Positions 21,660-63,549 of a stretch of DNA of 64,000 nucleotides are shown here, piece by piece. The DNA comes from Eledone cirrhosa (taxonomy: Eukaryota), in NCBI GenBank assembly GCA_964016885.1, contig OZ024743.1:149544001-149608000 (forward strand), given 5' to 3'. The position numbers and the translations under genes are program-made. A model generated the notes under the pieces. It saw only the letters and a list, made by a program, of their open reading frames with translations, did no database searches and had not been told where the DNA came from. Within the stretch, counting starts at the first letter, position 1. Every line of letters begins with the position of its first letter.

Positions 21660-21848
21660 ATATGTATATATATATATATATATATATGTATATACACACA
21701 CATATATATATATATATATATATATATATACACACATATATATATATATATATATATATACACACATATATATATATATATATATATATATATATATATA
21801 TATATATATATATACACATATATATATATATATATATATATATATATA
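21660..21848. repeat. Compound (TA)n microsatellite with CACA interruptions
   Basis: Directly visible. Confidence 0.95.
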
Positions 21849-22456
21849 TCATCATCATCATCATCAACGTTTAACGTCCGTGTTCCACGCTTGCATGGGT
21901 TTGGACGGGGGTAGTCCCACTTGAGGCAAGAGTGATTGTCTTGCTCGCATAGGACTGTCTGGCAGGTTTTCTACAGTTGGATGCCCTTCCTAACACCAAC
22001 CACATTTACAGTGTGGGTCTGGGAGGTTTTTACCGTGTTGCCTACACGGCCACATTACAGCGTGGACTGTGTGTTTTTTTGTTGTGACACCTACACGATC
22101 TCATTTGTTTCGGCCTGGATGGCGCGGCACCAACATAACTTTACATAGAACGGGGTGGTGTGGATGGGGTGGGGGTGGTGGCGGGACGGGGTGTAGTTTG
22201 TTAGAGATGCCTACTGGCAAGGCGGGTCTTCTCTGTTACTGAGTACCGCCAAAGGTCACGGTCCAGTGACATTGTCTTGGAGAGGTGTAAGTGTGTGAGG
22301 TCGGAGTTTATCAGCTCATCCCATGTTTTTCTAGGTCTGCCTATTCCGTGGCTACCGTCTATCTTTATTGCCCTGCACTTTGTAATACAGCTATCGACTT
22401 TCATGCGCATCATGTGTCCATACCAACGCAGCCTTCTCTCGAGTAAACAACATCTG
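21849..22456 (-). mobile_element. RTE LINE 3' fragment
   Basis: [20 protein letters not shown]...[15 protein letters not shown] on the minus strand; (GAT)n tail at 21849-21866. Confidence 0.92.
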
Positions 22457-22985
22457 ATATATATATATATATATATATATATATACACATATATATATAT
22501 ATATATATATACACATATATATATATACACATATATATATATATACACATATATATATATACACATATATATATATATATATATATATATATATATATAT
22601 ACACATATATATATATACACATATATATATATATATATATATATATATATATATATATATATATATATATATATACACATATATATATATATATATATAT
22701 ATATATATATATATATATATACACATATATATATATATATATATATATATATATATATATACACATATATATATATATATATATATATATACACATATAT
22801 ATATATATATATATATATATACACATATATATATATATATATATATATATATATATATATATATATATACACATATATATATATACACATATATATATAT
22901 ATATATATATATATATATATATATATATATATATACACATATATATATATATATATATATATATATATGTGTACATATATATATA
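22457..22985. repeat. ~530-bp compound (TA)n-CACA microsatellite
   Basis: Directly visible. Confidence 0.95.
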
Positions 22986-23132
22986 TTTATTCAGGTTTGA
23001 GGTTCACCACTGTATAGAGCTGGTCTATTCCGTATGGTCAATCGTAATGCAATAATATAGAGAGTACTCAACGTAAGGCAGTTCAACCGTCTTTGTTTTT
23101 GTAGTTGGTGGTGCTAGTACGTAGTTAAATAT

Positions 23133-23254
23133 TATAATGAAATGACAGGAGGCTGGATTTGTGTAAATCCTTGAAAGGTTTATTATACTATGATCATAGT
23201 ATAATAAACCTTTCAAGGATTTACACAAATCCAGCCTCCTGTCATTTCATTATA
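23133..23254. repeat. Perfect 122-bp palindrome with no spacer
   Basis: Arms of 61 bp centred on ...TACTATGA|TCATAGTA... at 23193/23194. Confidence 0.95.
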
Positions 23255-23263
23255 TTATATATA

Positions 23264-23354
23264 TATATTACTATTACACATCCAACGGAGCATGCATGCT
23301 TCGTTCATTTCTAGTCTGTGCAGGTCCTCTGCACGTAATGCCTATGTCTCACTG
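23264..23354 (-). repeat. 91-bp exact inverted copy of the RTE segment at 26158-26248
   Basis: Identical to that segment, including its in-frame TAG (GAGACATAG, where other copies have GAGACCTGG). Confidence 0.9.
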
Positions 23355-23545
23355 GCGGTGGATTGGCAGTATCGGTAGAGGGTCGGACGCCATGCTTTGA
23401 TGCATAGAGTTACGGCCCTTGCCATTCTGAGTTCAAATCCCGCCGAGGTTAACTTTGCCTTTCATCCTTACGGGGTCGATAAAATAAAGTACCAGTAATG
23501 TACTGGGTAATTTCTGGCCTTGTGCCAATAGTAGAAACAATTATA
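23355..23545 (+). mobile_element. SINE family A, full length
   Basis: Head, B box, core and tail as in other copies. Confidence 0.92.
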
Positions 23546-23720
23546 TTATATATATATATATATATATATGTGTATATATATATATATATATATATATATA
23601 TGTGTGTATATATATATATGTGTGTATATATATATATATGTGTGTATATATATATATATGTGTGTGTATATATATACACATATATATATATATACATATA
23701 TATATATATATATATATATA

Positions 23721-59804: not shown

Positions 59805-59996
59805 AATAATAATTGTTTCTACTTTAGGCACAAGGCCAGCAATCACCAGTTCATTACTGGTACTTTATTTTATCGACCCCGTAAGGATGAAAGGCAAAGT
59901 CAACCTCGGCGGGATTTGAACTCAGATCGTAAAGAGACGTAACTATGCTGGAAAGCATGGCGTCCGACCCTCTACCGATACTGCCAATCCACGGCC
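59805..59996 (-). mobile_element. SINE family A with TSD
   Basis: TTAATAATAAT at 59803-59813 and 59998-60008. Confidence 0.9.
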
Positions 59997-60085
59997 ATTA
60001 ATAATAATGCTGTGATATATATATATATAGCTGTGATATATATATAGCTGACCTACCTAGCTTCGCTTGGATAAACAGACCATAA

Positions 60086-60588
60086 CAGTTGAAAATATAT
60101 AGTATAGTATAGTATGACTGTTGAAAACATGTAGTATAGTATAGTATTACTGTTGAAAATAAATTGTACAGTACAATATTACTGTTGGAAATATATAGTA
60201 TAGTATTACTGTTGGAAATATATAGTATAGTATAGTATTACTGTTGAAAATAAATTGTACAGTACAATATTACTGTTGGAAATATATAGTACAGTATTAC
60301 TGTTGAAAATATATAGTATAGTATTACTGTTGAAAATATATAGTACAGTATTACTGTTGAAAATATATAGTACAGTATTACTGTTGAAAATATATAGTAC
60401 AGTATTACTGTTGAAAATATATAGTACAGTATTACTGTTTAAAATATATAGTACAGTATTACTGTTGAAAATATATAGTACAGTATTACTGTTGAAAACA
60501 TATAGTATATTATTACTGTTGAAAACATATAGTATAGTATTACTGTTGAAAATATATGGTATAGTATTACTGTTGAAAATATATAGTA
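60086..60588. repeat. 27-bp minisatellite, left part (TACTGTTGAAAATATATAGTAYAGTAT)
   Basis: Directly visible; gives the KIYSTVLLL repeat ORF. Confidence 0.95.
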
Positions 60589-61833
60589 CTAGCAGTGGTA
60601 CCCGGCGTTGCACGGGAAAAAGTATTTTGAAACGCGGGCCGCCAACAGACCTAATCGTGGAAAAACTGCATGCCTCGACAATGTGTAAAGAAAATAAACC
60701 CAATACTCTGATGGCTGGATAATCTTTTCCTCGATGAAGCAGGAAAAATGCAGGTTTTCACCTAATAAGCAATTTTTTTATGTGCGTAATATGCCTTGAA
60801 ATTTCGAGAAAATCGGCTAGACGTAGCGCCTAAAAAAAGCCCTAAAAAGCTGAAAAAATGAAGTTTTTCACCTAATGCGGGCCCTAAGCCATAAAAAAGT
60901 TGGATTTTCTTTGCTCACGGTATGAAGAAGAGATTGACTAATACATAGTTACAATTTCAAGGAAATCGGTCTGACGTTACGCCTCAAAATACCCCCCCCC
61001 CCCCCAAATCTCACTTATTCTCCAAACAGTTGATAAGTGCACACAACTTCTTCCCCACGTTTTAAGCCACAGTGTTGCTTACTTACGTACCACCAGACCC
61101 TTACTTCTTTGCCAGCCGTGGTTGTGGCAATACTAAGCTTAGCTAAGGCGGTTATATATTTCACACAACACTAAAAATGAAAGCCAGTAACTATGTATTA
61201 GTCAGTCTCTTCTTCATACAGTGAGCAAAGAAAATCCAACTTTTAGTGGAGCGAGTGAAATAAAGTCGATCCTGCTGCGATTCAAAAATCAGGTTTGCAG
61301 GTTATATATTTCACAAAACACTAAAAATTAAAGCCGGTAATAGCTATAATAGCTACAGTTTTCACAGTGTTGCTTACTTACGTGCCTGTACGAGAACAAA
61401 AGTTACTATTTTACTGCTTAGTATTGTTGAAAACCGACTGTTTTCAAACTTTACACATGTAATACTTATGTTTCAGGGAGTGTTCTGAGCAAAAAAATTT
61501 CAAATTTTCAATGCCCTAGGGACCGCATTCAGCGATTTAGCAATCTCTTTCCGTAATGCAGACAGATATTATAATGGCGCGACGTTATATGTATGTATCT
61601 ATCTAAAAAGAGGAAGACTAAGAATTATAGAGAGAGATCGCTAAATCGCCTAATGCGGTCCCTAGGGCATTGAAAATTTGAAATTTCTTTTGCTCAGAAC
61701 ACTCCCTGAAACATAAGTATTACATGTGTAAAGTTTAAAAACAGTCGGCTGGGTGCTTCTCGAGTTTCAGGGATTCAAACTCTCTCGCACGCACACACAG
61801 ACAGACATCCTCAGTTTTCTATATATATATAGA
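60589..61833 (-). mobile_element. Young non-autonomous Helitron (1245 bp)
   Basis: Minus strand starts TC (after A) and ends CTAG (before T), with hairpin CCCGTGCAACGCCGGG at 60601-60616; no TSD; removing it restores the satellite unit ATATAGTA|TAGTATT. Confidence 0.9.
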
Positions 61834-62310
61834 TAGTATTACAGTTGAAAATATATAGTACAGTATTACTGTTGAAAATATATAGTATAGTACAGTATTA
61901 CTGTTGAAAATGTATAGTATAGTATTACTGATGAAAATAGGTATAGTATTACTGTTGAAAATATATAGTACTGTATTACTGTTGCAAATATATAGTATAA
62001 TATTACTGTTGAAAACATATAGTGTAGTATAGTATTACTGTTGAAAATATATAGTATAGTACAGTATTACTGTTGAAAATATACAGTATAGTACAGTATT
62101 ACTGTGGAAAATATATAGTATTACTGTTGAAAATATATAGTATAGTATTACTGTTGAAAATATATAGTATAGTATTACTGTTGAAAATATATAGTATAGT
62201 ATTACTGTTGAAAATATATAGTACAGTATTACTGTTAAAAATATATAGTAGAGTATAGTATCACTGTTGAAAATATATAGTATAGTATAGTATTACTTTT
62301 GAAAATATGT
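61834..62310. repeat. 27-bp minisatellite, right part
   Basis: Same unit continues after the Helitron. Confidence 0.95.
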
Positions 62311-62499
62311 ACACGAATATATAATTATATATATAGTATTAAGGATACTATTTATGGTTATGTATGTAATAAAACCTTTTATGGTTATATATTTTTTATA
62401 CCAACCCTAAATAGTGAAAGATAGTCATTAATTACTATCTTATTACCAGTAAGATAAATAGCTCAATGTAATAACATCGGTTGTTTTACAGAGCAGTTA

Positions 62500-63397
62500 T
62501 ATAGAGATTACAATAATCAAAGTTCAGTTTAAATCATTTATTTGCTTACAATTCTTTCCTCCAAACCGAGGTTTGGATTCTTCGGAGCAACTATTTAGTG
62601 ATCTATTGACCTCCTTTTCAACACAAGAGACATATAAAAACATATGCACATATTGACCCACAGTGGGATGACATCCATCAAAATGATATAGCATGGCAAT
62701 TTACATATAAAGGTTAAAGGATAAAAATAAAAATAAAAATAAAAGTGAAAATGAAGCATTGGCAGTTTATGAAGATAAAGCAAGAGGAAAGTTTAGAGTA
62801 GTCAGTGTATGAAACTCTCACGTGTAGCATGCACGCGTGTCTTATTTATACAGGATTAGAGTGCGTCAGATTGTTACTTGCAGGGTCAGGCAGTTGAAGC
62901 AGGCAATCGATATTATTATGTGGGCTGAATTATTAAATCATTTTTTCGCATACACCTGTATGATATACAATCCCGAATGTAGAGAAACACCAAAATATCA
63001 AAAATATCAAACATATTATAAAACATATTATAGCGCAGGCAAAACAGAACCACTGTCTTCGCGCACACCACCACTCACATAATCCACGAGACGCAATATA
63101 TAGACCACGGGTCTATCATATAATCCACGATGGTTCAGCATATAACCAAGTTATAAACCATATCTTGTCGATTCTTAATTAATAGATCATATCTCATGGA
63201 TTATGTGAGTGGTGGTGTCATCCCACTGTGGGTCAATATGTGCATATGTTTTTATATGTCTCTTGTGTTGAAAAGGAGGTCAAGTATGTTATAGATCACT
63301 AAATAGTTGCTCCGAAGAATCCAAACCTCGGTTTGGAGGAAACAATTGTAAGCAAATAAATGATTTAAACTGAACTTTGATTATTGTAATCTCTATA
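62500..63397. repeat. Nested inverted duplications (62500-62673 / 63216-63397 and 63065-63091 / 63192-63218)
   Basis: Reverse-complement matches read directly. Confidence 0.9.
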
Positions 63398-63549
63398 ATT
63401 ATATATATATATATATAATTAATTAAAAGTTGGTTAGAAGCGAAGTCAATGCAGACAGGCATTATAAGCGAGCGACGTTATAGCTATGTATCTATCTAAA
63501 AAGACAGAGTAAGAAAGAGAGAGGAATGTCGTATTATATATATTCTATA

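What the first reader, a model, noticed from the sequence alone, without database searches (positions are those of the whole stretch)
21660..63420. Locally templated copies and fold-backs all end at (TA)n tracts: candidate TA-linked break and repair process
Seen: five rearranged segments each have one junction abutting (TA)n: palindrome arm 23194-23254; 23264-23354 (inverted copy of 26158-26248); 24554-24802 (inverted copy of 24124-24379); 58312-58617 (direct copy of 59696-59991); 63192-63397 (two-step fold-back). The first two share one short TA tract, so there are four independent tracts. The 5' truncation points of RTEs at 22456 and 25289 and of the PLE at ~53565 also abut (TA)n. All templates lie within ~3 kb. 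Known: long (TA)n forms cruciforms and is fragile; polymerase-theta end joining and MMBIR/FoSTeS produce nearby templated, often inverted, insertions. Inference: either TA tracts break and are patched by local template switching, or (TA)n is synthesised de novo as filler when ends are healed. The latter would make these microsatellites repair scars. I do not know of this being described in this lineage.
Basis: partly seen in the sequence, partly recalled or inferred. Interest (0 to 1): 0.75.

Follow-up and report, generated by a model that had tools for sequence, protein, structure and literature searches.

The report
Penelope retroelement fold-backs at TA repeats
Four of the five "local copies" are mirror-image or repeated ends of abundant jumping-gene families (one shown to be Penelope-like, three likely so) that sit in TA repeats, a layout already described, and only one 91-base piece was copied from neighbouring DNA, likely while an insertion end was being repaired.

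Summary
The five copies exist and the link to (TA)n is real: in 900 kb sampled elsewhere, 48 of 79 local inverted copies end at a TA tract (shuffles: mean 6, max 16; CA and GA tracts not enriched). But four of the five lie inside dispersed families (1,307-3,673 search candidates each) whose copies end at (TA)n at two fixed sites and often fold back. One family encodes a Hydra-clade Penelope-like protein; three carry hammerhead cores and no long ORF was found in them. This is the published Penelope layout (inverted 5'-truncated copy, terminal repeat, tail, TA target), not host repair of fragile tracts. Only 23264-23354 is truly local: it shares near-private variants with the RTE 3 kb away and starts at that RTE's only ATATA. 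A second case (single-copy flank mirrored across an insertion) turned up at another locus: 2 of 29 insertions examined. RTE ends favour TA only modestly (5' 3/38, 3' 6/27). De novo TA synthesis was neither shown nor excluded; junctions were not confirmed by reads. This scan already reported these fold-backs on other DNA of this genome.

The parts
21665..21849 (.). (TA)n tract with CAC interruptions, at the 3' side of RTE copy 1
21850..22456 (-). RTE LINE copy 1, (GAT)n tail at the left; its 5' edge maps 53 bp from the start of the 91-bp piece in RTE register
   Evidence: RTE label recalled from the RT motif and tail, no family-library hit
22457..22986 (.). 530-bp (TA)n tract with the same CAC interruptions
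22987..23255 (-). Family A fold-back insertion: left arm from fixed end 1 (22987-23193), right arm from fixed end 2 (23194-23255); the axis is the palindromic helix III of the family's hammerhead core
   Evidence: (1,307 candidates, 99%)
23256..23268 (.). short TA tract joining family A to the local copy
23264..23354 (-). 91-bp true local copy of RTE copy 2 (26158-26248), starting at a TATAT microhomology
23354..23549 (+). full-length SINE-like repeat (127 copies in 900 kb); 1-nt overlap with the local copy
   Evidence: SINE label recalled
23703..24802 (-). Family B retrozyme-like array: about two direct ~490-bp units (23703-24553) plus an inverted partial unit (24554-24802) that ends at fixed end 1 and (TA)n; hammerhead cores at 23953-24005 and 24431-24483
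   Evidence: (1,630 candidates)
24803..24976 (.). (TA)n tract at the outer end of the inverted unit
25290..26960 (+). RTE LINE copy 2, TA at both ends; 26158-26248 is the template of the 91-bp copy
51720..53568 (-). 5'-truncated Penelope-type element (RT thumb, GIY-YIG, hammerhead core near 51850); 5' end 6 bp from a TA tract at 53575-53589
   Evidence: Penelope/Poseidon label from recalled motifs, no Pfam hit
58289..60029 (-). Family C insertion, about 1.2 units of 1,384 bp between TA tracts; 58312-58617 and 59696-59991 are its terminal redundancy, each with an embedded SINE also present in copies elsewhere; hammerhead core broken in this copy
   Evidence: (2,365 candidates)
62326..63417 (-). 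Family D (Hydra-clade Penelope-like) 3' end: left arm from end 1 (62336-63187); right arm from end 2 (63397-63216) with a jump at a 3-nt microhomology to 63065-63091, then joined to the left arm; TA at both outer ends
   Evidence: (3,673 candidates)

Best explanation
Four of the five segments are parts of dispersed families that end in (TA)n at two fixed sites, and they were likely made at insertion by Penelope-like retrotransposition rather than copied later from host DNA. Shown: family membership, fixed ends, recurrent fold-backs, a Hydra-type RT plus GIY-YIG ORF for family D, hammerhead cores in A, B and C. Inferred: the element's endonuclease cuts a TA tract, both DNA ends prime cDNA on the same RNA at the two start sites, and the two cDNAs join at a short microhomology (fold-backs A, B, D), or one cDNA runs more than once round the unit (direct repeat C, array B). 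The fifth segment is a real local DNA copy: a free TA end likely primed at the only ATATA of the RTE 3 kb away, copied 91 nt and rejoined at the SINE, as a minor way of finishing an insertion.
For: Each 'template' has 1,307-3,673 candidates genome-wide. End 1 abuts a TA (or GA) tract in 14/14 A loci, 10/13 D, 8/9 B, 3/11 C; end 2 in 8/14, 6/13, 5/9, 4/11. Fold-backs in at least 6/14 A and 8/13 D loci, stopping at end 2. A family-D copy holds a 761-aa open frame with DKT, YRDD, CxCX5C and YIG (L185). 41 of 48 TA-ended events in the random sample are dispersed repeats even in 0.9 Mb; 3 of 3 arms that looked unique proved high-copy (930-2,203 candidates). Copy and local 'template' share 1 of 11 non-family variants for A-D but 7 of 7 for the RTE piece (only 4 outgroup copies); best non-local match to that RTE stretch 97% among 40 scored of 1,645; its letters at 23307 and 23312 are rare in run X17; the only TATAT/ATATA in RTE copy 2 is at 26244, where the copy starts. 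Published: inverted 5'-truncated copies, pseudo-LTRs, tail and (TA)n targets (PMC8557442); two RT start sites and cutting of both strands at AT-rich DNA (PMC11167929).
Against: No protein-coding parent was found for A, B or C (longest ORFs 112, 78, 94 aa; none of 130 aa in 8 further A loci), so their mobilisation by a Penelope enzyme is inferred. No hammerhead core was found in family D, though Hydra elements are reported to carry one. The tails between end 1 and end 2 are longer (about 55-165 bp) than the 30-40 bp described. The variant test dates the copies to the time of insertion but cannot tell an RNA from a DNA template. Loci were chosen as best matches to queries starting at end 1, which favours copies holding that end. 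The 91-bp piece sits only 53 bp out of register with RTE copy 1, which TA priming alone does not explain. No read or contig spanned a junction.
Confidence: 0.85

Rival explanations
1. TA tracts break on their own (cruciforms) and polymerase-theta-type repair or template switching patches them with nearby host DNA; elements are bystanders.
For: TA-specific enrichment; the 91-bp copy; a single-copy 134-bp flank mirrored across an insertion at L082; TA fragility and MMEJ repair in human cells (PMC13645644, passages).
Against: Both true local copies sit at Penelope-like junctions; fixed family-specific ends and 1,000+ copies are not expected from host repair; every other arm tested is a dispersed family.
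Confidence: 0.08
2. (TA)n is synthesised de novo at insertion or repair junctions, for example by reiterative copying by the telomerase-related Penelope RT, so the tracts are scars. One reading of 22456-23354 fits: RTE copy 1 once ran on to 23354, family A entered at its short TATAT, 53 bp were lost, the remainder was converted from RTE copy 2, and both tracts are new.
For: RTE copy 1 and the 91-bp piece are collinear with 58 bp between them in 2 of 2 paralogues, which hold no tract there. 500 of 1,291 analysable tract edges (of 2,200) recur in two or more blocks as element ends or element-internal tracts.
Against: RTE copy 1 is only 82% identical to copy 2 next to the junction (169/206), so full conversion must be added; the tracts on both sides of RTE copy 1 share the same CAC interruptions, as one split older tract would. 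Of 259 flank pairs with paralogues, 10 had mostly tract-free paralogues and none besides this one was a clean empty site (one inspected was two element ends). 0 of 22 RTE internal 3' ends abut TA. (TA)n is reported as a pre-existing preferred target (PMC8557442).
Confidence: 0.12
3. The fold-backs are assembly or long-read artefacts at TA tracts.
For: No contig or read bridged a junction.
Against: Arms differ from each other by substitutions and indels, end at family-specific sites at unrelated loci, and the two outer ends of a fold-back are different sites.
Confidence: 0.03

Closest known systems
Hydra clade of C-terminal-endonuclease Penelope-like elements (PMC8557442; passages and section 11 read, supplements not opened)
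   Same: Family D: single ORF with RT and C-terminal GIY-YIG, DKT, CxCX5C, no CCHH, CxxC and CxH near the end; insertion in (TA)n; inverted 5'-truncated copy; one-sided tail.
   Different: No hammerhead core found in family D; long 3' region (about 2.3 kb in L114); tail about 165 bp; RWK not seen in the part fetched.
Non-LTR retrozymes (PMC7229834, passages; bioRxiv 10.64898/2026.07.22.740005, first fifth of the text)
   Same: Family B: non-coding tandem units each with a type I hammerhead core, dimers to 11-mers, dispersed.
   Different: Units of about 470-520 bp with an internal TA tract, slightly above the 150-450 bp quoted; arrays flanked by (TA)n and often switching orientation (3 of 9 loci by the hammerhead probe); 'inverted' does not occur in the main text of PMC7229834. 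Cleavage and circles not tested.
Poseidon PAc in vitro mechanism (PMC11167929; parts 1-2 of 4 read)
   Same: Two internal RT start sites that define the tail; cutting and extension of both strands at AT-rich DNA.
   Different: Other clade; start sites there are not homologous to the target, whereas here ends lie at TA-rich template positions; twin priming of one RNA was not shown there.
L1 twin priming, templated genomic insertions and fold-backs (PMC11702581, passages)
   Same: Inverted second cDNA, template switch of the second cDNA before joining, genomic DNA copied into junctions.
   Different: L1, human cells, poly(A)/T-tract priming; second priming site not fixed.
MMEJ repair of breaks at TA repeats (PMC13645644, passages)
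   Same: Breakpoints enriched at TA repeats.
   Different: Host repair on ecDNA giving deletions and small duplications; no element families or fixed ends.

Membership tests
Hydra-clade PLE (family D) | single ORF, RT with C-terminal GIY-YIG | tested here: met
   761-aa open frame in L185 with YRDD and YIG; no Pfam hit for the C-terminal 419 aa
Hydra-clade PLE (family D) | DKG changed to DKT; linker CxCX5C; CCHH absent; CxxC and CxH flanking E and N | tested here: met
   DKT in L184, L185; CxCX5C in 8 of 10 loci; CNLC and CQH in L114
Hydra-clade PLE (family D) | N-terminal RWK motif | tested here: inconclusive
   not in the frames fetched, which may lack the true N-terminus
Hydra-clade PLE (family D) | canonical hammerhead | tested here: inconclusive
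   no CTGAnGA core in the 3' region of L114 or in the element part of 10 further loci; the pattern allowed only a short helix II
Hydra-clade PLE (family D) | insertion into (TA)n, inverted 5'-truncated copy, tail | tested here: met
Hydra-clade PLE (family D) | placement in the Hydra clade by RT phylogeny | not tested
   no tree built
PLE-dependent non-coding elements (families A, C) | hammerhead core, fixed TA ends, inverted or tandem structure | tested here: met
   (family C core folds, z -3.07; family A z -1.29)
PLE-dependent non-coding elements (families A, C) | identified autonomous partner | tested here: inconclusive
   no ORF over 112 aa in the copies examined
Non-LTR retrozyme (family B) | tandem non-coding units, each with a type I hammerhead | tested here: met
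   predicted fold has helices I and II but z only -0.5 and -0.1; Rfam HH9 hit 15.1 bits, E 4.2, below threshold
Non-LTR retrozyme (family B) | self-cleavage and circular RNA | not testable with these tools
   needs transcripts or an assay
Host templated insertion (theta-type or template switch) | copy of nearby DNA sharing its private variants, with microhomology at the start | tested here: met
   23264-23354 only and L082
Host templated insertion (theta-type or template switch) | same for the four other segments | tested here: not met
   dispersed families; 1 of 11 variants shared
De novo (TA)n filler | empty site lacks the tract | tested here: inconclusive
   no orthologous alleles could be read

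The most novel reading that the evidence does not exclude
Penelope-like insertion leaves free TA ends that are lengthened de novo (telomerase-like stuttering by the element's RT) and then act as roving primers that copy neighbouring host DNA, helped by nearby homology, so that much of this genome's (TA)n load and a few percent of junction duplications are insertion scars that seed the next round of targets.
Probability: 0.15. Interest if true: 0.75.

Novelty: new member of a known kind. Interest (0 to 1): 0.3.

Why it matters
The main result is a correction: TA-bounded fold-backs in this genome should be annotated as Penelope-like insertions, not as host repair scars, and they account for most local inverted copies (48 of 79 events end at TA). 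The small residue matters more: 2 of 29 insertions examined carry DNA copied from outside the element through a TA primer, a natural record of how the unfinished end is resolved and a route by which these elements duplicate host sequence. If the tracts proved to be made at insertion, that would link a telomerase relative to microsatellite birth; this is open.

Tried and rejected
Rfam at gathering thresholds: no hit in the window; E-value mode gave only hairpin and microsatellite noise and a weak hammerhead hit. Pfam: no useful hit for 4 of 4 proteins. Protein search with the family-D frame: 4 unnamed relatives of 743-791 aa. First all-against-all BLAST timed out because 3 of 12 sampled blocks (C5, C7, C14) are tandem satellite with no TA tract; these 3 were dropped before all counts, so rates apply to non-satellite DNA. 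Simple repeats were masked before BLAST, which can force alignment ends at tracts; CA and GA tracts were masked alike and are not enriched. Early idea that flanks of L080 and L081 were empty sites: rejected, they are ends of other families. C6:10770-13371 as a de novo case: rejected as two element ends. Three large fold-backs taken for host DNA: all high-copy. The ~110-bp palindromes first taken for MITEs: one side continues into a fixed tail. Laying runs: one search was swamped by repeats; one X17 contig (depth 44) and 58 X21 reads carried the variant RTE haplotype, the contig running on into RTE sequence, and nothing listed bridged the junctions; a hole proves nothing. The fold-back labels for families B and C are unreliable (references held both orientations or TA) and were not used. 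Literature search for de novo TA synthesis by Penelope RT: 0 papers with all five terms; other searches.
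Full report
Observation. Self-alignment found all five segments at the stated places: the palindrome 23126-23261 (66/68), the 91/91 inverted copy 23264-23354 of 26158-26248, the inverted copy 24546-24805 of 24121-24387 (250/267), the direct pair 58306-58617/59690-59991 (295/312) and the two-step fold-back 63192-63397. 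Each has an end at a TA tract. Five other local copies in the window do not, so 'all' is too strong. To test chance I fetched twelve 100-kb blocks of the same genome, dropped three that are satellite without TA tracts, and listed local copies of at least 40 bp, 92% identity, within 5 kb. Of 79 inverted events, 48 have an end within 8 bp of (TA)>=5; shifting events at random gives 6.0 (max 16 of 2000). CA tracts: 3 vs 2.1; GA: 0 vs 0.9. Direct events: 28 of 75 vs 7.6. The link is real and specific to TA.

What the segments are. Searching the genome with each 'template' showed dispersed families: A (22990-23195) 1,307 candidates at 99%; B (23825-24240) 1,630; C (58618-59050) 2,365; D (62340-62720) 3,673. 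In fetched copies each family ends at (TA)n at two fixed sites: end 1 in 14/14 A loci, 10/13 D, 8/9 B, 3/11 C; end 2 in 8/14, 6/13, 5/9, 4/11 (the test also accepted GA tracts, and loci were the best matches to queries that start at end 1). At least 6 of 14 A and 8 of 13 D loci fold back at variable internal points, while the inverted arm stops at end 2. In the window the A palindrome turns exactly on the palindromic helix III of the family's hammerhead core. The C 'direct copy' is the terminal redundancy of a 1,384-bp unit; the embedded SINE is present in copies elsewhere (L028, L035, L036). B forms arrays of 470-520-bp units, each with a hammerhead core, up to 11 in a row, 3 of 9 with an orientation switch. 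D extends into an ORF: L185 holds 761 open codons with DKT, YRDD, CxCX5C and YIG, the marks given for the Hydra clade (PMC8557442 section 11). No long ORF was found for A, B or C and no hammerhead core for D. In the random sample 41 of the 48 TA-ended events are dispersed even within 0.9 Mb, and 3 of 3 arms that looked unique had 930-2,203 candidates.

Were the copies taken from the neighbouring DNA? Against family majorities, copy and 'template' in A-D share 1 of 11 differences (6 template-only, 4 copy-only): they diverged separately from the start, as expected if both arose at insertion. This does not by itself tell RNA from DNA templates. The 91-bp piece is different: it shares 7 of 7 differences (only 4 outgroup copies), the best non-local match to that RTE stretch is 97% among 40 scored of 1,645, and its letters at 23307 and 23312 are rare among all RTE-matching contigs of run X17; in run X21, 58 reads carry this haplotype against about 12,900 on the conserved part. 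It begins at the only TATAT/ATATA of the 1.67-kb RTE copy 2 and ends with a 1-nt overlap at the SINE. A second true case lies at L082: 157 bp of flank mirrored across a family-D insertion behind a TA tract, single-copy in the genome (2 places). That is 1 of 27 A and D loci screened plus 1 of the 2 window sites: 2 of 29, a lower bound because only fetched flanks were searched.

An unexplained detail. RTE copy 1 (ends 22456) and the 91-bp piece are collinear, 53 bp apart in RTE register, yet copy 1 is 82% identical to copy 2 beside the junction. Either pairing of the two inverted RTE copies guided the TA end to its priming site (my preferred reading, inferred), or copy 1 was interrupted, partly deleted and converted, in which case both tracts are new. 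The shared CAC interruptions of the tracts on both sides of copy 1 favour one older tract split by the RTE.

LINE ends. In the sample, 3 of 38 RTE internal 5' ends (background 2.5%, p=0.07; 4 of about 40 with two queries, p=0.02), 0 of 22 internal 3' ends, and 6 of 27 tails abut TA. RTEs favour TA modestly; a thymine/TA insertion signature is published for RTEs (PMC6007223, abstract only). The Penelope-type family of 51720-53568 had 0 of 6 internal 5' ends at TA.

De novo TA. A search for empty sites through paralogous flanks gave 259 pairs, 10 with mostly tract-free paralogues, none a clean case apart from the RTE register above. Power was low, since most flanks are themselves element ends: 500 of 1,291 analysable tract edges recur across blocks. 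Public runs did not bridge any junction. The question stays open.

Mechanism and comparison. Shown: families, fixed ends, fold-backs, ORF, cores, one local copy. Inferred: cutting in (TA)n, priming of cDNA from both ends at two RNA sites, joining by microhomology, occasional RT jumps (the 27-nt step in D at a 3-nt overlap), and rare finishing by copying host DNA. Inverted 5'-truncated copies, pseudo-LTRs, tails and TA targets are described (PMC8557442, passages); two start sites and two-strand cutting were shown in vitro for another clade (PMC11167929); tandem hammerhead repeats are retrozymes derived from such elements (PMC7229834; bioRxiv 10.64898/2026.07.22.740005); twin priming with template switches and templated genomic inserts is known for L1 (PMC11702581). 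That the genome is octopus-like is recalled from the SINE and stated in earlier notes of the scan, not tested; an octopus repeat annotation lists active Penelope-like families (PMC13282606, passages). Earlier reports of this scan describe the same fold-backs on other DNA of this genome; my reading was on record before (notes).

Verdict. Real pattern, mostly known cause: new families of a known kind. Interest 0.3; the rare host-copying junctions and the open origin of the tracts are what remains worth pursuing.

Noticed in passing
window 25085-25170 (-): A further hammerhead-like core in the 300 bp between the family-B array and RTE copy 2, so the block 22457-25289 is a pile of at least three such insertions plus a SINE; predicted fold is not the hammerhead.
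   Followed up: partly
window 60588-61830: Element starting CTAG next to TA, flanked on both sides by 27-bp satellite arrays (60103-60589, 61825-62288), with internal inverted and direct copies that do not end at TA; same start seen in L006; Helitron-like by recall only.
   Followed up: no
window 2078-2623 and 35116-35518: Pairs of SINE copies in inverted orientation.
   Followed up: no
L082 1325-1481 / 2399-2555 (oriented): Single-copy host flank mirrored across a family-D insertion behind a TA tract, 93.6% identity.
   Followed up: yes
L028, L035, L036 and window 58430-58617, 59804-59997: A SINE-carrying variant of family C has itself spread, so the SINE rides inside the unit.
   Followed up: partly
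L154 11-734 (block C28 50011-50734) and L132 299-1192 (block C9 30299-31192): Near-perfect palindromes of 724 and 894 bp without TA tracts at their ends.
   Followed up: no
L053 and L145 (blocks C4 42154-46531, C10 60984-64530): Fold-backs of 3.5-4.4 kb whose arms contain long microsatellite stretches yet belong to high-copy families; one arm of the C10 case holds a later SINE.
   Followed up: partly
L099, L112: Another hammerhead array family (about 466-bp unit, 99.9% identical units in L112, with an orientation switch), apparently very young.
   Followed up: no
L059-L068, L119-L128, L169-L178: Three of twelve random 100-kb blocks are tandem satellite with no TA tract.
   Followed up: no
L114 about 1200-1500 and other family-D copies: An expanding TAAAAA hexamer array inside the family-D 3' region, of very different length between copies.
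   Followed up: no
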